In this document: positions 7,136 to 49,471 of the stretch, piece by piece
Position numbering within the stretch: position 1 is the first letter of the stretch
Layout of the letters: the number at the start of each line of letters is the position of its first letter
From: a virus
DNA length: 64,000 nt
IMG/VR virus record: IMGVR_UViG_3300020122_000155
Coordinates: 41,066-105,065 of that record
Strand: one strand, 5' to 3'
The notes under the pieces: generated by a model
What the model was told of the DNA's origin: nothing
Database searches by the model: none
Seen by the model: only the letters and a program-made list of their open reading frames with translations
Translations under genes and position numbers: made by a program

Positions 7136-7320
7136 CGCCGACATCCCAATCTGAATCGCTCTACAACGTCGCAGAGCGCCTACGCGCCATCGCAGCCGAA
7201 GTGTGCGGATCGGTCCATATGCGGATTATTGATGAAGCGGCGACGGTCGAGAGGCTGGCAAAGGAACAGCGGCAGGCTCCTAGTCATGGGTTGCCGATGA
7301 AACCGAGGGGGAGAAAGTGA
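7132..7320 (+). CDS. hypothetical protein
   Basis: Overlaps neighbours at both ends. Confidence 0.55.
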   Translation: MTPTSQSESLYNVAERLRAIAAEVCGSVHMRIIDEAATVERLAKEQRQAPSHGLPMKPRGRK

Positions 7321-7712
7321 TTCAGCTTATCCTGCACCTTTTCGGAGATTACGTCACACAGTCCGATTGGATGGCGCAGAACAAAACCAAGAGCACGTGG
7401 GCCGCATTATGCCATGCGACGGTGTATTCCGCGCCGTTTTTATTTATCGGTAGCTGGAAGGCTCTGCTTGTGATCTGGTCCACGCATCTATTGATTGATC
7501 GCTTTCGTCTGGCACGCTATGTCGTGTTCGCCAAGAACTTCCTGATATTCGACGACTTCCACGCGAAGGGCTGGCCGCGTCCGAAGTGGAGCGATTGTAG
7601 CGCGACGGGTTATCCGAGCGCATCCCCTCCATGGCTGGCGGTGTGGCTGCTAATCGCCGCTGACAACACGATGCACTTGGCGATAAATTACGCCCCTCTT
7701 GGGTGGTTATGA
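7317..7712 (+). CDS. DUF3307-family membrane protein
   Basis: LHLFGDYVTQSDWMA..K, H..VY, THLLIDRF, ADNTMH. Confidence 0.8.
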   Translation: MIQLILHLFGDYVTQSDWMAQNKTKSTWAALCHATVYSAPFLFIGSWKALLVIWSTHLLIDRFRLARYVVFAKNFLIFDDFHAKGWPRPKWSDCSATGYPSASPPWLAVWLLIAADNTMHLAINYAPLGWL

Positions 7713-8200
7713 GCATTTATCGCTACACTCTTCGCCGCGAATGGAACGCGCAGAAGCGCGGCGTACTCAACTGGGTAATGTTAAATCCGAGCATGGCGGA
7801 CGACATTTTCGATGATCCGACAATTCGAAAGTGCATTGGCTTCACGAAACGATGGGGATTTTCCGGCTTGGTTGTGACGAATCTCTTCGCCTATCGCGCT
7901 ACGGACCCAAGAGACATGATCCGGGTAGCCCGAAAATCTTGGATGCTCGCCGAGGGTGAGGGGAATCGCGAGACGCTTTTGCGCGAAGCTGACGCCGCAG
8001 AGATGATCTGCTGCGCTTGGGGTAATAACGGCGGCATTAATGGGCGCGATTTGGAAGTTGTGTCGCTCCTCCATGAAACGCACGATCTTTACTGCATTCG
8101 GCGCACGAAGGAAGGCAATCCGGTGCATCCGGTGCGGGAATCATACACGGACGCGCCGGTCTTGTTCTATTCGTGCGTAGGAGAGCGGAAACATGCCTGA
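7709..8200 (+). CDS. DUF1643-family protein
   Basis: YRYTL.R.W, VMLNPS.AD...DDPTIRKC, NLFAYRATDP, AWG, G.P.HP. Confidence 0.85.
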   Translation: MSIYRYTLRREWNAQKRGVLNWVMLNPSMADDIFDDPTIRKCIGFTKRWGFSGLVVTNLFAYRATDPRDMIRVARKSWMLAEGEGNRETLLREADAAEMICCAWGNNGGINGRDLEVVSLLHETHDLYCIRRTKEGNPVHPVRESYTDAPVLFYSCVGERKHA

Positions 8201-8531
8201 CCGCCACGCATGGATAAAGCGAATCCGCAAGGGAGATGTGCTGGAGTCTCGCTCCGGTCGCTTGCGAATCGTTCGCTCTGTTTCGCACAGCGTAATCCCC
8301 GGATACGACATTCGGACGACCGTCATTTTCACGATCATGCGGTGCTCGTGGACGACTCGCTGCTACACGGTTTACACCGGCAACGATCTTGTCCAGATGG
8401 GATACAGGCCGGTCAAAGCCCGCGTCCGACTCGTAAAGCCGTTTGACAAGAAGATTGAGGCGGAGTTTAACCGCAAAGGGAATGCCAGCGAATGCGTGCT
8501 CCGCTGTTGCGACGTTGAAGGTATCGCGTGA
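8193..8531 (+). CDS. hypothetical protein
   Basis: GGAG RBS; operon packing. Confidence 0.6.
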   Translation: MPDRHAWIKRIRKGDVLESRSGRLRIVRSVSHSVIPGYDIRTTVIFTIMRCSWTTRCYTVYTGNDLVQMGYRPVKARVRLVKPFDKKIEAEFNRKGNASECVLRCCDVEGIA

Positions 8532-8764
8532 AACGCGGCGAGAGAATCTGGACCTGCGAGGTTTGCGGCAAAGAGGCTCCGTGGGGTGATGGATGGCAGT
8601 CCTATGGGTCAATTCGCAATGACGAGGGCGGCTTGCCTCCAATTGTGGTTTGCTCGCTGGCTTGCCGCGACGATCAGAAAACCAAGCAGTTGATCGAGGA
8701 GTACTGCGTTGTCGAAGCCGCGATGAAGAAGGAAGGCTATTTCCGTCGAGGACCGTGCCGATGA
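8528..8764 (+). CDS. small Cys-rich (zinc-binding) protein
   Basis: CEVCG...CSLAC. Confidence 0.6.
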   Translation: MKRGERIWTCEVCGKEAPWGDGWQSYGSIRNDEGGLPPIVVCSLACRDDQKTKQLIEEYCVVEAAMKKEGYFRRGPCR

Positions 8765-8773
8765 ACTTTTCTC

Positions 8774-8802
8774 TTGCAAAGCTCAAGGAAGAGGGTTAGA
8801 CT
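8774..8802 (+). promoter_or_regulatory. sigma70-like promoter, predicted leaderless start near 8810
   Basis: TTGCAA (8774-8779), 17 nt, TAGACT (8797-8802); ATG follows after 7 nt. Confidence 0.7.
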
Positions 8803-8809
8803 TTGAGGT

Positions 8810-9235
8810 ATGACGTAGGTGCAAGGTTCGCCAAACGAGCAGTACGTTTACATTTTTGTCCGCCAGGACATTTCCCTTCCTCAGCAGATCGTCCAATCCA
8901 ACCACGCAACGCTTTCCTTTTCTTCCCATCATGGCGTGGAGGGAATCCCAAACATTGTTCTTATCGGAGTCCCCAACGTTGCCGCACTGAAAGAGGCGTG
9001 CGCGTTGCTGTCGGCCAACCAGATTCCGCACTGGAGTTGGACTGAGCCGGATTTCAACCTGGGATTCACAGCCATTTGCACAGCCGCGATTAGCGGATCG
9101 GAGCGCCTATGTCTGGCGCACTACCGCACGTGGAAACCAGTTTTTCCCTCGTCAGCTAACTGCAAGCTGGCAGTCTCTAACACTGCTCATGCTGGGGCGG
9201 GTCCAGCCGAGGGAACCAATGCCGCTGTAGCTTAA
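8810..9235 (+). CDS. Pth2-fold (peptidyl-tRNA hydrolase II / PTRHD1-like) protein; in-frame TAG at codon 3 if started at ATG 8810, otherwise GTG 8819
   Basis: YIFVRQDI....QIVQS.HA, NIVLIGV, W.EPD....TAIC match the phage Pth2-like pattern; the last ~30 codons overlap the tRNA-like genes. Confidence 0.8.
9145..9218 (+). tRNA. non-canonical amber-suppressor-type tRNA (anticodon CUA)
   Basis: Acceptor TCCCTCG/CGAGGGA + A + CCA; D stem AGCT/AGCT; anticodon stem GCAGT/ACTGC with loop CT-CTA-AC; T stem GCTGG/CCAGC. Confidence 0.8.
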
Positions 9236-9290
9236 AGCAGAGCGCTCGCGCAAGCGATAGATGGAGGGTCGCGTCCTTCCAGCGGCACCA
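9221..9290 (+). ncRNA. tRNA-like RNA with a GCAA tetraloop in place of the anticodon loop
   Basis: Acceptor GCCGCTG/CAGCGGC + ACCA; D stem GCTT/GAGC; TCGC-GCAA-GCGA; T stem GGAGG/CCTTC. Confidence 0.75.
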
Positions 9291-9294
9291 GAAT

Positions 9295-9378
9295 GCTTCG
9301 GTAGCTTAAATGCTAGAGCGACCGGCGATCCTCACGGGTTGTCGGTAGATGGTGGTGAAAGGCCATCCCGGAGCACCA
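9295..9378 (+). ncRNA. tRNA-like RNA with an 11-bp anticodon-position arm and 4-nt loop
   Basis: Acceptor GCTTCGG/CCGGAGC + ACCA; D stem GCTT/GAGC; ACCGGCGATCC-TCAC-GGGTTGTCGGT; T stem GGTGG/CCATC; T-run follows. Confidence 0.75.
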
Positions 9379-9389
9379 TCATTTTTTTC

Positions 9390-9417
9390 TTGCAAATATT
9401 CTGGATCTGGTTATACT
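9390..9417 (+). promoter_or_regulatory. sigma70-like promoter of the Hfq-like/replication operon
   Basis: TTGCAA-16-TATACT. Confidence 0.6.
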
Positions 9418-9500: not shown

Positions 9501-9770
9501 TTGAACCAGCCGCTAAGAGCGCCTTTAGCATCTCCACCGCAGGCGCAACAAAAACCACCTGTCCCAATAAAGCCAAAGCCCAACGATCCCTTTCGAGAGC
9601 AGCTATCTCGTTTCAAGAAAAAGTTTGTTAGGGTCGTTACCACAGAGGGCAAATTTGAGGGTAAATTGATCTGCTTTGATTACGGATCTAAGGCCCTCGT
9701 GATCGAATCCGGCGACAGCCCGATACTGCTTTCCCACTACCATTCCATCGTGATAATCGATGGCCAATAA
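9501..9770 (+). CDS. Hfq/Sm-like RNA-binding protein
   Basis: DPFREQLSRFKKKFVRVVTTEGKFEGKLICFD parallels the Hfq helix plus Sm1 (DPFL..L.....V.....G.KL.G.I..FD); TTG start with AAGGAGG. Confidence 0.6.
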   Translation: MNQPLRAPLASPPQAQQKPPVPIKPKPNDPFREQLSRFKKKFVRVVTTEGKFEGKLICFDYGSKALVIESGDSPILLSHYHSIVIIDGQ

Positions 9771-35094: not shown

Positions 35095-38000
35095 CTAGTT
35101 CACCGTGTAGACGACATGAACAACGAAAAACTTTGCCGTCCCGCCTGGAGTTCCGCTTACGAGTTCAAGATAGTCGCCTGCGTTAAGACCTGTATTTTGT
35201 AGTGTAGCGGAGCAGGTCGTCGCACCATTTATGCCTGTTGTTCCACCCGTATTGGAGCAGGCAATCCCGCCACTAGCCGCCGTTGCAAGGGCCGAGGAGA
35301 CGATGTTTACTATCGTACCGGCACGGTTTCTACCCACAATCACGTTGGGCGTCCCCGCGTCTGCGTTCACGTCCATCTCAACGATGGTCGCTGCGGCGGG
35401 GATAAAGCATACACGGGACTGGGGTCCCATCTGGCCGGAAGTGATTGCACTTCCCGATGTGTCATTGATTGGGATGTCGCAAACCCGGCGCGTATTGACC
35501 ACGGCCATTTTTGAAGAGGAGACGGCATTGGCCGCAATCGTTGTCGCAACGCTTCCGCTAGTCGTAACATCTCCTGTGAGATTTCCAACAGCTCCGGTTT
35601 GGGTGAAGACGCTCGTAACTGGCGCGCCTGGAATCCACGCCGCCACATTGGTACTCGTGATCGTCGGAGCGCCCGTCGTTGTACTCCATGTCGCTACCAC
35701 ATCGAGTGCCTGCGTTGCCGTCGTGTCGATGGTCCAGGTTGAACTGGTCTGCATCGCCGCTTCTCCCGGCGTCAGTGTGGAACCAGTCCCTTCAAAGATA
35801 CAGTTAGCAATCTGTGTTCCGCTTGCACCAGAGGTGCGTGTGGTTACCGCACAGCGAAGCCTCCAAACTCCGTTGGTGACAGAAGCGATCTGAACCACTG
35901 CGCCCGTCGTAATTCGCGGCGTTCCCCCGATGCTGAGGGCAATCGTCAGACTGGCCGGGGTCGCAGGAGTCGAGGAGAAGCCCTGCGCCACAAATTCAAG
36001 CACCTGCCCCGCCGTGAAGGTGTTCGCGGGAACCGTGGTCGAACCTGTTACGGTGCCGATCAGCGTGGTAGGGCTTGTGGCCGTTACGGTCGTGGAGTTC
36101 GTAGTCGAAAACAGGGTTGCGCCTGCCGTACCGCTTCCGCCCGATCCGCAAGCTGCTCCCGCTGTATCCAACTTGTAGTTTGACCCGCTCACAGTCCATT
36201 TCGCGCAATCGCCATTCCCAGGGGTGACTGTGAACTGGGGGATTTTTGCATCCGCGCTCGATTGTGCCGCGTGGAGCATGTTATTGGTCGAATCGTAACC
36301 GATCCCGCCGTTAACGGCAGTTGTCAATCCAGCACCTACTGGAATCTTGAGAGCGCTCGCTGCCGTGGACGCGCTCATGTCTAGAGTCATCGCAGCCGCG
36401 CCCGAGTTCGTGGTGTCTTTACGAACTACGTTCGATGCTAAGAATCCAGCATCAGCGGGAACGTTGGACGCCCCAAACGAGACGAGATCACCGTTTGTCC
36501 CGGAGAATGTTCCGCCGTTTAGCTTAGTGCAAGTCAACGTGAAGGAACTGCTTGCGCAATCACCACTGAGTTCTGCGGGGGTGGATTGCGTCTCTACGTT
36601 CGAGGAATTGGTAACACGGAAGAAACCCGTGCCTGCAACACCAGCTAGATCTAGCCTATAGGCCGTAACTGAGGTGGGGGCCTCGATAACAATGCTGTTC
36701 GCTCCCGGAGTGCTCGCAGTGCCCTGGTTGAATTGGGTTCCGCCAGCTACGCCAGAACCAGAACCCGTGGTCAAGGTTCCCGGAGTGGAGATGTTCCCGC
36801 TGCCGTCCATTGTGGCCGTCGCGGAGGGGGTCTGGATGGTCGTAGTTCCCCCGCCCGTCACAAGGGCCGTGCTGGTGAGTGAACCTGCGCCGACTACGGT
36901 GACAGTGCCAGAGCCAGTCGGAGTCGCGCACGCACCGTCTCCACGTAGGAAAGTGCTACTGGAGCAGGTCCCCGACCACAGCCCATAAACGTCTGACGCC
37001 GCCGCGTCCGAGATCGCTCCAGTGGTAGTAGTGTTCTTGACGATGCCGGTTCCGAGGGTGGCCCAATTTTGATTCGAACTCCCCAAAGTGAGCGTGGCGG
37101 TATTTGCAACTCCGGTGCCCCCTTGTCCGGGGGTGACAGCGGCATTCGTCGTCAATACCGTTGTCGATGCGTTGGGAAACGTATACGTCTTGGCCGAGGT
37201 AGCAGGTCCAGACACGGTGAAGAACGCATTTGCCGTTCCCCCATTGGCTGTCGGTAGGATGCCGGTCACCTTGGTCGTCAGATCAATAGTGGACGCGGCG
37301 ATGTCGGCGTTCACTACCGAACCAAAAGCGGGATTACCGGCTGCATTCCCATGCAGCAATGTAGTCGTAGTCCCCTGATTGGCGAATTGCGCTCCCGCAA
37401 GGGTGAGGGCAGTCCACGCAGCAGTTGTGGCGTTGCTCAGGAGCACGGTGTTGGCTGCGCCGATACCGAGCCGAGCGAGCGCCGGAGTTGCGTTGACCAG
37501 GAGGATGTCTCCTTGGGTAGTGAGAGGCGTATTAGCCAATGCCAGAGCGCCTGTGATTGTCGCTGCCGTGCCGGATGTGTTACCCGTCACATTGCCAGTC
37601 AGGTTTCCGCTGAAAGTGCCCGTGGTCGTTCCGGGGAGCGTGGGGCTGGTAGGAATTGATAGGGTGATTGCCCCGGTAGAAGCCGATGCTGTAATTTGAT
37701 TCGCTGTGCCAGTGATAGTAGTTGGAAGTGCCGTACAGGTTTCCGAGTTACCGGAAGCATCCACACCTAGGGGGAATTGACCAGCCGAACAATTCGTTCC
37801 ATTCGCCGCCAAAGCCGTCGCTGTCGTCGCCGCGATAGTACCGCTGCCCGACACTGCGAGGGATGCACCTGTACCTACGACCATTGCGGCTGTTGTATTA
37901 GTGGAGCCTGTAATGGCTGAGAAAGCATTTGATCCGCCGCCCGCACACGCAGATCCAGTGGCTAGACAGATTGCTCCCGAACCTGATACAGCCGTTCCTA

Positions 38001-48600: not shown

Positions 48601-49471
48601 CAAGCGCGCTATCGACATCCTCGATTGGCCCCGTCTGCATCTCCGCAGCGACCTTCATCTCGGGGACTGCTAGGTGTAGATCGTCGGCGAAACGAAGGTT
48701 TGAGTTCCCCGGCTTAATGCCGCGCATCAGACTGTCGTGCCAATCAACCGGAAAGACCTTCTTGCTCGCCGCTGTTGCCATATCTCCGACAGCACTCTTG
48801 GCTTTGCCGACAACCTTCCCGACCGCCGTACCTTCCCCGGCACCAAGCGCAGCCCCAGCAGCGCCTACGACTGCTTTCCCGAGCGCACCAGCAACGTTCG
48901 GTGCGCGAGTTGGTCCGACTTGCCGAGGAGAAGCCGGTTCACCAACGGCAGTCTCAGCAATGTCCGCCGCCATTGGCCCAACTCCAGGAGTGAGTGCCGC
49001 AAGCCCATGCCCAGCAGCTTCGGAATAACGCCCCTGCTTCGCATAATCGACGGCCTGATTGAACTCATTGACATGTGATCCGATAACAGCATCGGCGACG
49101 CGCCCCTGCGGTCCCTTAACGGCATAGTTGGCCGCTCCGAGCGCAGCTTTCCCAAGGTTCCCCTGCATAACATCCGTTCCGATGTTCCCAAGTTCTTCCG
49201 TTCCAAGAGCACGCTTTGCTACCCCCGAGGCGGCATCCCAAACGCCGCCAAGAAAGCGACCGGCTGCGCTCCCCTGATCTTGCATGTATTGCGGATATTT
49301 TTGCTCAAGGGTAGACTTTGTGTCGGAAGCGGTCCCTGAAGGTGGCTGAAAGTGAGTAGATCGAACCTGATCCGCGAGAGCGGCATAGTCCACTGGAGAA
49401 GACGCAGAAGTAGCGGACTTCTGGCGAACTTGGTCCGCGATGGCGCTGTAATCAATAGCAGGGCTACTCAT
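45680..49471 (-). CDS. large internal virion/ejection protein with C-terminal DdrB-like ParB domain
   Basis: A/G/P-rich N-terminus with DY.A.ADQVR repeats; Y.V.EL.DI.ASH, NP.Y, GP.LI....ALGGNGR.M. Confidence 0.75.
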   Translation of the reverse strand: MSSPAIDYSAIADQVRQKSATSASSPVDYAALADQVRSTHFQPPSGTASDTKSTLEQKYPQYMQDQGSAAGRFLGGVWDAASGVAKRALGTEELGNIGTDVMQGNLGKAALGAANYAVKGPQGRVADAVIGSHVNEFNQAVDYAKQGRYSEAAGHGLAALTPGVGPMAADIAETAVGEPASPRQVGPTRAPNVAGALGKAVVGAAGAALGAGEGTAVGKVVGKAKSAVGDMATAASKKVFPVDWHDSLMRGIKPGNSNLRFADDLHLAVPEMKVAAEMQTGPIEDVDSALAAAQQAKRNIWQQYEQAAGPAKARNTQVDLSPIAEARIAGISPKFEFENPEGAQAIRDSAAKYRTQVPLETAESYLATTNAELRAYYAKFPLAQRAALASDPYVAGLEGEARAYRDAIYKSIDPEGEGAAPAELKRRYGALMNIEDQLQRRSNVAARQQPDNLMEQAGKVGAGLQMGRGLIKGLTHNPVGAAVDIGGALAARAAAKYVKEQQTTNALIKKGFDNYSGPTPAPVSMPTAAPPAGLLGPGSVRMPAAPDSSGPIPPTVPQGLRVRNEGIPPERQLPAPTIKMPGEAPPPPVSPMEEPSGINVSTARWVTDPTAPSGGYYTTESAPPGQSPGTLPPARSLPPPPQQMQPVGGDPLAAPQMRVTNAMPIVDPETGEIVSYSSESQTPQTRFRTTDAPSAARNFGQVIAKANRPAEAPAMREGVLNGRRVALQEDGNPAMYLDEAPGQQVRQPEARPIVRQEDNAPLAYAEPVAPAAAGDILNPSNVSPEHAATGSTPSAIGQVPGESAGAQAAQPAAGVEGGGQGQANNGANPASFDASSPATTEVLIPGEGRSFPAQYKVRELVDIQASHNGNTFQPNPKYSLKNDRTYTSSSDRNKVASQSTKGLFKPSLHITDNPDAANGPILIDSQGNALGGNGRTMQLHRVYAADPKDAFGYRSLLMKKAAQYGQDPQAIAQMKQPVLVREISDQDIVNKGHAITDFNKTGTAALKPSEQAISDSRRVSLGTLNDLSARLDEAGEGTTLAQLLQGKNGTEVLDKLIDDGVITPQQRAAYAKDDVLTKDGQTRISKLLLGRFFRDPAQLDTISPKITNKIERSAANLASIDNPETGEWNITPKIHQAMDLIEETRAQGYKGIDNYLKQGGLLGQEFPPDVVTMAKRFQQIPTRELTEALARYAEDAREYSAPPSLFARPTEPPTPAEALEQAFEYAKTQKAARDAAKLAAESAPPAPARPVFGQPISGRMPPP

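What the first reader, a model, noticed from the sequence alone, without database searches (positions are those of the whole stretch)
8774..9378. Candidate new system: Pth2-fold gene coupled to an amber tRNA and two anticodon-less tRNA mimics
Seen: one compact unit of promoter (TTGCAA-17-TAGACT), ATG-ACG-TAG, Pth2-like ORF, three back-to-back CCA-ended cloverleaves (9145-9218 with CUA; 9221-9290; 9295-9378) and a T-run. Known: Pth enzymes recycle peptidyl-tRNA and N-acetylated aminoacyl-tRNA (the product of GNAT toxins such as TacT). Several anti-phage effectors attack tRNA (anticodon nucleases PrrC and AriB; CCA-pyrophosphorylating toxSAS such as CapRel). Inference: a phage translation-rescue or anti-defence module in which the RNAs act as decoys or partners and the protein recycles or binds them, with expression gated by tRNA state. 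Caveat: the canonical Pth2 GK and DAGxT motifs are replaced (QQ, EPD), as in PTRHD1-like proteins, so it may bind tRNA rather than hydrolyse.
Basis: partly seen in the sequence, partly recalled or inferred. Interest (0 to 1): 0.95.

Follow-up and report, generated by a model that had tools for sequence, protein, structure and literature searches.

The report
Suppressor-tRNA-gated phage Pth2 cassette
A complete 105-kb soil phage with the normal genetic code carries one compact unit: a tRNA-hydrolase-like gene whose third codon is the stop UAG, the phage's only tRNA (a UAG reader), and two tRNA look-alikes that cannot read codons. Dozens of phages, lab-grown ones included, share the stop-plus-tRNA pairing, which gives the puzzling suppressor tRNAs of such phages a concrete, testable target.

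Summary
At 8774-9388 lie a promoter, ATG-ACG-TAG in frame with a 108-aa Pth2-fold domain, a tRNA(CUA), two CCA-ended cloverleaves with hairpin-capped anticodon arms, and a T-run.

The gate is strongly supported by comparison:
- About 20 metagenomic phages and 10 deposited phage records (9 cultured) keep an early in-frame TAG before this gene.
- A CUA tRNA is present wherever I could look.
- One phage has TGA with a UCA tRNA.
- Three homologues without an early stop have no suppressor tRNA.

The window is not TAG-recoded, and this is the phage's only called tRNA.

Two further features are real but unexplained. In 17 of 19 related loci the ORF has no stop before the downstream tRNA. The two mimics keep their pairing in strain variants, and GCAA-capped look-alikes recur in other cassettes.

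The anti-defence or decoy role and hydrolase activity are untested, and the catalytic Lys is absent. No RNA data exist.

I found no paper describing the circuit. This scan has already noted it in at least 136 other genomes, so it is a class, not a one-off.

The parts
8774..8802 (+). Promoter: -35 TTGCAA, 17-nt spacer, -10 TAGACT. It ends 7 nt before the ATG, so the mRNA is probably leaderless.
   Evidence: Sequence. Below the scan tool's threshold. Supported by position: relatives have TTGACA-16/18-TAnnnT 6-9 nt before their ATG.
8810..8818 (+). Gate: ATG-ACG-TAG in frame with the ORF, so UAG is codon 3.
   Evidence: ATG-NNN-TAG or slightly longer leaders are conserved in about 20 metagenomic and 10 deposited phages. 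It is the only such leader with a promoter in the window, and the genome shows no excess of TAG leaders.
8819..9144 (+). Pth2-fold protein domain (108 aa). The conserved part ends near ...YRTWKP at about 9139.
   Evidence: pLDDT 93.7. Foldseek finds Pth2 structures 3erj, 2zv3, 1q7s, 1wn2 and 1xty. 53 homologues. 23 of 53 weakly match PF01981. 11 of 14 strain substitutions fall at third codon positions.
9145..9235 (+). Continuation of the open frame through tRNA 1 to TAA 9233-9235, inside RNA 2. There is no stop before the tRNA.
   Evidence: The same holds in 17 of 19 related loci.
9145..9218 (+). tRNA(CUA) amber suppressor with an encoded CCA and an atypical elbow. It is the only tRNA that ARAGORN finds in the whole 105-kb phage.
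   Evidence: No substitutions in strain variants. 16 such CUA tRNAs beside the gene covary at 19 of 21 pairs.
9221..9290 (+). tRNA look-alike 2: acceptor, D and T arms plus ACCA, with the anticodon arm reduced to a 4-5 bp stem capped by GCAA.
   Evidence: Rfam RF00005 at 41.8 bits with a 4-nt loop. Fold. In strain variants G20>A and U38>G keep or add pairs, and the fold goes from -28.8 to -32.1 kcal/mol.
9295..9378 (+). tRNA look-alike 3: acceptor, D and T arms plus ACCA, with the anticodon arm replaced by an 11-bp stem and a 4-nt cap.
   Evidence: Fold z = -4.2. All four strain substitutions lie in stems and all keep pairing. Its T stem GGUGG/CCAUC is shared with tRNA-Lys(UUU) genes of related cassettes.
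9382..9388 (+). T-run after the last acceptor stem, probably the end of the transcription unit. The next promoter lies at 9390-9417.
   Evidence: Sequence. Promoter TTGCAA-16-TATACT called.

Best explanation
This is a self-contained phage cassette in which a divergent Pth2-fold protein is made only when the cassette's own amber-suppressor tRNA reads through a UAG at codon 3.

Proposed course of events:
1. One promoter gives a leaderless or nearly leaderless transcript: AUG-ACG-UAG, Pth2-like ORF, tRNA(CUA), look-alike 2, look-alike 3, T-run.
2. RNase P and 3' trimming release three CCA-ended RNAs (inferred).
3. Ribosomes start at the 5' AUG. They either terminate at UAG through RF1 or, if charged tRNA(CUA) is available, read through and make the protein. 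Its level therefore follows suppressor activity (inferred from comparison; no experiment).
4. The protein acts on the acceptor end of tRNA, as a peptidyl- or acyl-aminoacyl-tRNA hydrolase with altered chemistry or as a binder (inferred from the fold alone).
5. The most likely purpose is to match a tRNA-recycling or rescue activity to the amount of stop-codon read-through, or to feed back on it (inferred).

Two features add a second coupling between translation and tRNA processing, but their role is open. The ORF runs into the tRNA without a stop, and the two look-alikes cannot decode.
For: Fold:
- The AlphaFold2 model has pLDDT 93.7. The top 12 listed Foldseek PDB entries are Pth2-family or Pth2-like. 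23 of 53 relatives weakly match PF01981.

Gate:
- An in-frame ATG-NNN-TAG, or 3-8 sense codons and then TAG, lies directly before the domain in the window, in about 20 non-redundant IMG/VR and metagenome loci, and in RsoM2USA, Serratia BF, CBB, Arash, XacN1, Xoo-sp13, RAS14, ME3, fHe-Yen9-03 and LR756511.
- The codon after the stop is often not a start codon (AAT, AAC, ACC, ATC, ATT). The first canonical start then lies inside or after the essential first beta strand.
- In cultured phages the Shine-Dalgarno sequence is placed for the leader ATG. In soil phages the -10 box ends 6-9 nt before that ATG.
- The base after the stop is a purine in all 29 leaders (A in 26, G in 3).

Pairing with the tRNA:
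- A CUA tRNA lies directly 3' in most soil loci.
- Exactly one CUA tRNA is present in each of five cultured phages whose tRNA regions I fetched. ME3 has one annotated. XacN1 has two, whose targets its authors could not find (PMC5852040).
- L008 has ATG-CAT-TGA together with a tRNA(UCA).
- Homologues with ordinary starts (L007, RaK2, Hallingskeid) have no suppressor tRNA.

Not recoding:
- Long late genes end in TAG. TAG-bridged frames are not in excess.

Selection:
- 11 of 14 ORF substitutions in strain variants are at third codon positions, and the tRNA has none.
Against: - No expression, processing or charging data exist. No RNA run holds the stretch.
- In this window codon 4 is GTG with GAGG 10 nt upstream. 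A transcript from further upstream could therefore start translation there and bypass the gate. L001 and L002 have ATG at that place.
- The window's own promoter is weak by consensus (8 of 12).
- The CUA tRNA has a non-canonical elbow and fails the Rfam tRNA model, so its decoding ability is inferred, not shown.
- The Pth2 catalytic Lys is replaced by Gln or a variable residue, and the window protein itself does not reach any Pfam hit. Hydrolase activity is therefore uncertain.
- The TGA/UCA match rests on a single phage in my own data.
- A gate whose only visible target is the cassette's own gene does not explain why the phage keeps a suppressor at all.
Confidence: 0.6

Rival explanations
1. 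ATG-ACG-TAG is a separate two-codon mini-ORF, either bar-like or a simple upstream ORF. The Pth2-like protein is started independently at the next codon (GTG 8819 here) by its own ribosome-binding site or by re-initiation. The neighbouring CUA tRNA has nothing to do with its translation.
For: In the window GTG follows the TAG and GAGG lies 10 nt upstream. L001 and L002 have ATG after the TAG. Two-codon minigenes are known to cause peptidyl-tRNA drop-off in lambda (own knowledge), which would fit a Pth-like gene thematically.
Against: - In most relatives the next codon is ATC, ATT, ATA, AAT, AAC or ACC, with no ribosome-binding site of its own.
- Leader length varies from 2 to 9 codons.
- The stop type matches the suppressor anticodon (TAG with CUA, TGA with UCA).
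- Homologues without an early stop lack suppressor tRNAs.
- The leaderless geometry requires the 5' AUG as the start.
Confidence: 0.1
2. The phage uses a genetic code in which TAG is a sense codon, so the early TAG is just one recoded codon among many.
For: Phage suppressor tRNAs are typical of TAG-recoded phages (own knowledge; Borges et al. 2022). TAG is the least used stop among long ORFs: 8 of 47.
Against: Long late genes end in TAG at 35095, 55364 and 61228. Reading TAG as sense does not join ORFs more than reading TAA or TGA as sense does. Only this gene has the leader.
Confidence: 0.03
3. The two anticodon-less cloverleaves are decaying tRNA pseudogenes (former tRNA-Lys copies) without a function. 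Only the gene and the CUA tRNA form the working unit.
For: Their sequences are not conserved across distant cassettes, and only 4 of about 20 loci have sealed or shortened arms. Their D and T loops lack the canonical G18G19 and T54-Psi55-C56, and three strain substitutions fall in the T loop of RNA 2. Related cassettes have an ordinary tRNA-Lys(UUU) in that slot.
Against: - All 6 stem substitutions in strain variants keep or improve pairing, and the variant folds are more stable.
- The caps are closed 4-nt loops, one of them GNRA, not random damage.
- CCA is encoded.
- GCAA-capped CCA-ended look-alikes recur independently in L006 and L015.
- Other phages hold similar capped forms: L098, L072 and L051.
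Confidence: 0.2

Closest known systems
Phage-encoded suppressor tRNAs and stop-codon recoding (code 15 and code 4 phages; Borges et al. 2022, own knowledge). CUA and UCA tRNAs of standard-code jumbo phages XacN1 (PMC5852040) and Atu_ph07 (PMC6102473).
   Same: A phage brings its own stop-reading tRNA, and in-frame stops make some genes depend on it.
   Different: Here the genome keeps the standard code and TAG ends ordinary genes. The only visible target is one small gene, always at its first codons, often in the same transcript as the tRNA. The XacN1 authors looked only for C-terminal read-through and found no target.
prfB (RF2) autoregulation through an early in-frame UGA (own knowledge)
   Same: A termination-related factor carries an early in-frame stop, so its synthesis reports on how efficiently that stop is read.
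   Different: prfB is rescued by a +1 frameshift, and the product itself recognises the stop. Here the rescue is by a suppressor tRNA, and no link between the protein and UAG recognition is shown.
arfA non-stop mRNA regulation by tmRNA (own knowledge; review PMC8012679 listed, not read here)
   Same: An ORF whose stop is removed by RNA processing would give a non-stop message, so the product would accumulate only when rescue is saturated. Here 5' processing of the tRNA would cut off the stop.
   Different: The cut would be made by RNase P at a tRNA, not by RNase III at a hairpin. Nothing has been tested, and cultured-phage homologues have ordinary stops.
Archaeal and eukaryotic Pth2 / PTRH2 and Pth2-like proteins (PF01981; 3erj, 2zv3, 1q7s, 1xty, 2gax)
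   Same: The same alpha/beta fold. The R-x-D-L...Q-x-x-H-A helix motif and a conserved Asp and Thr in the C-terminal half are kept.
   Different: The Lys of the GK motif is missing. 'DAGxT' is replaced by 'EPDxxxGxT'. The window protein is below all Pfam thresholds. The family is specific to phages and gated by a stop codon.
Non-decoding tRNA mimics (bacterial YrlA tRNA-like domain, viral tRNA-like structures; own knowledge)
   Same: tRNA-shaped RNAs that keep the acceptor/T-arm side but cannot decode.
   Different: These are free-standing genes inside a tRNA operon with an encoded CCA. The anticodon arm is sealed by a tetraloop, and they sit next to a Pth2-like gene. No partner protein is known.

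Membership tests
PTH2 peptidyl-tRNA hydrolase (PF01981) | Pth2 alpha/beta fold | tested here: met
   AlphaFold2 model with pLDDT 93.7. The top 12 listed Foldseek PDB entries are Pth2-family or Pth2-like; probability 1.00, TM 0.6-0.72.
PTH2 peptidyl-tRNA hydrolase (PF01981) | Sequence match to the family profile above the curated cut-off | tested here: not met
   The window protein has no Pfam hit at E <= 1. 23 of 53 relatives match PF01981 only weakly, best E 2.4e-5. The profile against the PDB finds a Pth2 chain at E 0.008.
PTH2 peptidyl-tRNA hydrolase (PF01981) | Catalytic Lys of the G-K motif before the Q-x-x-H-A helix (role recalled from the literature) | tested here: not met
   The HMMER alignment to 24bt_A puts Q-Q opposite K-K, with the G deleted. 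That column is Q, H, D or M in relatives.
PTH2 peptidyl-tRNA hydrolase (PF01981) | Catalytic Asp and Thr of the D-A-G-x-T segment | tested here: inconclusive
   D78 and T88 are invariant in 53 sequences. I could not make a residue-level superposition on a solved Pth2.
PTH2 peptidyl-tRNA hydrolase (PF01981) | Hydrolysis of the peptidyl-tRNA ester bond | not testable with these tools
   Needs an enzyme assay or pth(ts) complementation.
Amber suppressor tRNA | Cloverleaf with a 7-nt anticodon loop, U33 and anticodon CUA | tested here: met
   ARAGORN. Fold shows loop CUCUAAC. CUA is invariant in 16 cassette tRNAs, with 19 of 21 pairs covarying.
Amber suppressor tRNA | Canonical tRNA elbow (G18G19, T54-Psi55-C56) and a match to the general tRNA model | tested here: not met
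   No RF00005 hit at E <= 10 for 9145-9218. The T arm is 6 bp with a 5-nt loop, and the D loop has no GG. L004's first CUA tRNA shares this T arm.
Amber suppressor tRNA | Reads UAG in vivo | not testable with these tools
   Supported only indirectly, by the conserved early TAG, the TGA/UCA match and the controls.
Stop-codon-recoded phage (TAG as sense) | In-frame TAG in many genes and TAG not used as a stop | tested here: not met
   TAG ends 8 of 47 long ORFs, including three large late genes. No excess of TAG-bridged frames.
Canonical tRNA (Rfam RF00005), for RNAs 2 and 3 | Cloverleaf with a 7-nt anticodon loop able to present an anticodon | tested here: not met
   RNA 2 passes RF00005 at 41.8 bits, but its loop is the 4-nt GCAA. 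RNA 3 has an 11-bp stem with a 4-nt cap and no Rfam hit.
arfA-type non-stop regulation | The mature mRNA lacks the stop codon because of processing, and the product is controlled by tmRNA | not testable with these tools
   Only the anatomy is shown: no stop before the tRNA in 17 of 19 loci. No RNA ends are available.
lambda bar-type minigene | A two-codon ORF whose expression sequesters tRNA as peptidyl-tRNA | not tested
   The sequence form ATG-NNN-stop is present. Leader length varies from 2 to 9 codons and the last sense codon is not conserved, which argues against sequestration of one specific tRNA.

The most novel reading that the evidence does not exclude
The cassette is a translational homeostat with two coupled sensors.

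1. UAG at codon 3 measures suppressor activity against RF1.
2. Because the ORF has no stop, read-through ribosomes run into the suppressor's own precursor. Either they hinder its RNase P processing, which is negative feedback on tRNA output, or they meet an RNase-P-cut non-stop end. In the second case the Pth2-like protein escapes tmRNA tagging only when ribosome rescue is saturated, which is ArfA-like logic.

The sealed, tRNA-Lys-derived look-alikes would be non-decoding partners or decoys. They would present an acceptor end to the Pth2-like protein or to host enzymes and toxins that act on tRNA 3' ends.
Probability: 0.2. Interest if true: 0.9.

Novelty: new variant of a known kind. Interest (0 to 1): 0.8.

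Why it matters
- Suppressor tRNAs in phages that keep the standard code have had no known target. The XacN1 authors say so explicitly.
- Here the target is a conserved small gene of the translation-rescue world, present but unannotated or truncated in well-known cultured jumbo phages (Serratia BF, CBB, RsoM2USA, ME3, Arash, XacN1). The idea can therefore be tested at once with ordinary phage genetics.
- It would add a natural, tRNA-operated translational gate to known phage regulation.
- It would correct gene calls in many genomes.
- It would open two further questions: what a Lys-less Pth2 fold does, and what sealed tRNA look-alikes are for.

Tried and rejected
Only their ORF tails, which translate tRNA-like sequence, were seen.
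- Sequencing runs: no RNA holder was listed. Only soil DNA contigs could be laid, so nothing can be said about expression or processing.
- The promoter scan did not call the window's promoter.
- Rfam does not recognise the CUA tRNA or RNA 3.
- Single-protein IMG/VR scans with the L008 (TGA-type) and Serratia BF proteins found only near-identical records. The TGA/UCA match therefore stays at one phage in my own data.
- Neighbouring genes of the window (Sm-like 9501-9770, zinc-ribbon 8528-8764, DUF1643-like, DUF3307-like) have no counterparts in the related loci. They are not part of the cassette.
- TAG recoding of the whole phage is rejected.
- A first, slow version of my tRNA-like detector timed out. 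The faster one scores some normal tRNAs as 'stem 7, loop 3', so I counted only arms whose total length differs from 17 nt.
- Five literature searches found no description of the circuit or of sealed tRNA mimics.
- No complex prediction was run, because the partner is RNA.

Full report
**What is there.**
The window is bases 41066-105065 of a complete 105,065-bp virus record with 127-bp terminal repeats and 55% G+C. Soil metagenome runs hold parts of the stretch. Between 8774 and 9388 the + strand holds, in order:
- TTGCAA, a 17-nt spacer and TAGACT.
- Seven bases further, ATG-ACG-TAG.
- In the same frame, GTG 8819 and an open frame to TAA 9233-9235.
- A tRNA with anticodon CUA at 9145-9218.
- Two further cloverleaves at 9221-9290 and 9295-9378.
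- Seven T residues.

All three RNAs end in ACCA. Rfam calls the second RNA a tRNA (41.8 bits), although a 4-nt GCAA loop replaces its anticodon loop. The third RNA has an 11-bp stem with a 4-nt cap (fold z = -4.2). Rfam does not recognise the CUA tRNA at all. That tRNA has one base between the acceptor and D stems, a 6-bp T stem and a 5-nt T loop. ARAGORN finds no other tRNA in the whole phage.

**The protein.**
Pfam finds nothing for the window protein. An AlphaFold2 model built on 53 homologues is confident (pLDDT 93.7). The top 12 listed Foldseek PDB entries are Pth2-family or Pth2-like: 3erj, 2zv3, 1q7s, 1wn2, 1rlk, 1xty and 2gax, with TM about 0.7. Of 53 relatives, 23 touch PF01981 weakly.

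The N-terminal motif reads FVRQD-x-x-L-x-x-Q-I-V-Q-S-N-H-A. A profile alignment to a solved Pth2 places Q-Q where Pth2 has K-K after a Gly. The Lys held to be catalytic is therefore absent. D78 and T88 are invariant. In strain variants about 95% identical, 11 of 14 substitutions in the ORF fall at third codon positions. It is a real, selected protein of the Pth2 fold with altered chemistry.

**The gate.**
I collected these relatives:
- 9 IMG/VR loci and 19 metagenome loci, partly the same phages.
- One more found by chance through a D-arm pattern (L083).
- 12 deposited phage records.

Nearly all have an ATG, one to eight sense codons and then TAG, in frame and directly before the conserved first beta strand. 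The most common second codon is ACA, ACG or ACC; CCT, CAT, TTG, CTG, AAG and ACT also occur.

The codon after the stop is ATC, ATT, ATA, AAT, AAC, ACC, GTT, GTG or ATG, so it is often not a start codon. The next canonical start then lies inside the fold. In the cultured phages a Shine-Dalgarno sequence sits 6-8 nt before the leader ATG. In the soil phages a TTGACA-16/18-TAnnnT promoter ends 6-9 nt before it, which is the geometry of a leaderless mRNA and needs a 5' AUG. The base after the stop is A in 26 of 29 leaders and G in 3. From memory of the classical context studies, this is the context that favours suppression.

Annotators missed or truncated the gene in RsoM2USA, Serratia BF, K64-1, the Eneladusvirus group and Arash.

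**Pairing with a suppressor tRNA.**
- In the soil clade a CUA tRNA follows the gene directly. Sixteen of these tRNAs have unrelated bodies, an invariant CUA and 19 of 21 covarying pairs.
- Five cultured carriers whose tRNA regions I fetched each have exactly one CUA tRNA. ME3 has one annotated 500 nt upstream.
- XacN1 has two. Its authors wrote that they could not identify genes targeted by these suppressor tRNAs.
- One phage (L008) has ATG-CAT-TGA and a tRNA(UCA) instead.
- Three homologues with ordinary starts have no suppressor tRNA: L007 (SD + GTG), RaK2 and Hallingskeid.

The window is not recoded. Large late genes end in TAG, and reading TAG as sense joins nothing. No other gene has such a leader. 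Read-through by the phage's own tRNA is therefore the best reading. A separate mini-ORF with independent initiation remains possible for this window alone, because GTG with an upstream GAGG follows the TAG.

**No stop before the tRNA.**
The conserved domain ends at about 9139 and the tRNA starts at 9145. The first in-frame stop lies inside RNA 2. In 17 of 19 related soil loci the first in-frame stop lies inside or beyond the first downstream tRNA or tRNA-like gene. The median distance is 35 codons after the domain, against 19.5 and 7.5 in the other two frames. The tails of database homologues translate tRNA sequence.

L007 shows the same feature with an ordinary start and a tRNA-Arg, so it is independent of the amber gate. 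Cultured-phage homologues have normal stops.

Cutting at the tRNA 5' end would leave a non-stop message. Alternatively, translating ribosomes would invade the tRNA precursor. Both are inferences, and no RNA data exist.

**The look-alikes.**
- Strain variants change RNA 3 at four stem positions and RNA 2 at two. All six changes keep or create pairs (U.G to C-G or U-A, C.U to C-G). The variant folds are more stable. Three further changes fall in the T loop of RNA 2.
- Their acceptor stem (GCCGCUG) and T stems match the tRNA-Lys(UUU) genes that occupy this slot in L001, L004 and L010. They look like sealed derivatives of a tRNA-Lys with a changed elbow.
- Comparable RNAs occur in other cassettes. 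L006 5538-5611 has a 6-bp stem and a GCAA cap, next to tRNA-Lys and CUA tRNAs. L015 716-769 is a mini form with a GCAA-capped hairpin and a CCA end. L002 3325-3394 has a shortened arm. Other phages hold similar forms (L098, L072, L051).
- Related cassettes also hold tRNAs with 8- and 9-nt anticodon loops (L009, L008).

The look-alikes are selected structures, but they are not a constant part of the cassette. Their job is unknown.

**Prior knowledge.**
Five full-text searches found no description. This scan has noted the amber- or opal-gated Pth2 gene in at least 136 other genomes and sealed mimics behind Pth2 in several. Those are unchecked AI notes. I re-derived the gate, the controls and one TGA/UCA case independently here.

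**Verdict.**
The gate is well supported by comparison but has no experiment behind it. Enzyme activity, decoy or anti-defence roles and the non-stop logic are open.

What this window adds to the class:
- A minimal complete phage whose only tRNA is the suppressor.
- The systematic absence of a stop before the tRNA.
- Strain-level evidence that the two sealed look-alikes are under structural selection.

Noticed in passing
window 9501-9770 (+), own promoter 9390-9417: An 89-aa ORF right after the RNA array has a weak Sm/LSM-like match (PF21166 LSM12_LSM, E 3e-4, below cut-off). An Sm-like RNA binder next to tRNA-like RNAs would be worth a fold. It is not conserved in the related loci.
   Followed up: partly
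L006 1055-1405 and L008 2137-2526: Two jumbo-phage contigs (332 kb and 143 kb) carry permuted tmRNA genes 0.5-1.6 kb upstream of their stop-gated Pth2-like gene. The tags are ANAPKAMAAHA and ADASALPMAA.
   Followed up: no
L009 3516-3590, L008 3310-3387, L003 3370-3456, L009 3426-3507: These tRNAs lie directly behind the Pth2-like gene and have 8-nt (CCUCUAGU) or 9-nt (GGAGGUUGA) anticodon loops or over-long anticodon stems. They may be frameshift-type or non-decoding tRNAs.
   Followed up: partly
L002 3860-3966, L018 762-864, L006 5820-5920: CUA-anticodon tRNAs (shown for L002 and L018; L006 5820-5920 was not folded) with very long variable arms (about 100-107 nt in all). ARAGORN misses them but Rfam finds them. 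Several unrelated tRNA bodies have thus been turned into amber suppressors.
   Followed up: partly
L029 (RsoM2USA 68.9-69.2 kb), L030 (Serratia BF 286.1 kb), L107 (fHe-Yen9-03), L100 (Arash gp84c), L105 (RAS14), L031/L104 (XacN1 ORF364, Xoo-sp13_327): In deposited cultured-phage genomes the gene is unannotated, truncated or given a late start because of the early TAG. In XacN1, Xoo-sp13 and RAS14 the gated protein is a fusion of a roughly 180-aa N-terminal domain with the Pth2-like domain.
   Followed up: partly
L115 (Salmonella phage Arash, record 49173-49247): ARAGORN reads anticodon CUA for a tRNA that the record annotates as tRNA-Phe.
   Followed up: no
L098, L072, L077, L051/L074, L085, L061/L066/L099 (IMG/VR): A D-arm pattern search (GTAGCTTAAA...AGAGCG) turned up many phage tRNA-shaped genes whose anticodon arm is a short capped hairpin (GAAA, AAC, UAAA, GGCC) or is truncated. 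Most have no Pth2-like gene in the fetched stretch.
   Followed up: partly
window 23851-63909 (-): A long run of very large late genes (up to 1889 aa) has almost no PHROG matches. The phage is far from described groups.
   Followed up: no
window 7317-8200 (+): Upstream genes match phrog_6676 (DUF3307-like membrane protein) and phrog_3230 (DUF1643-like). They are not part of the cassette.
   Followed up: no
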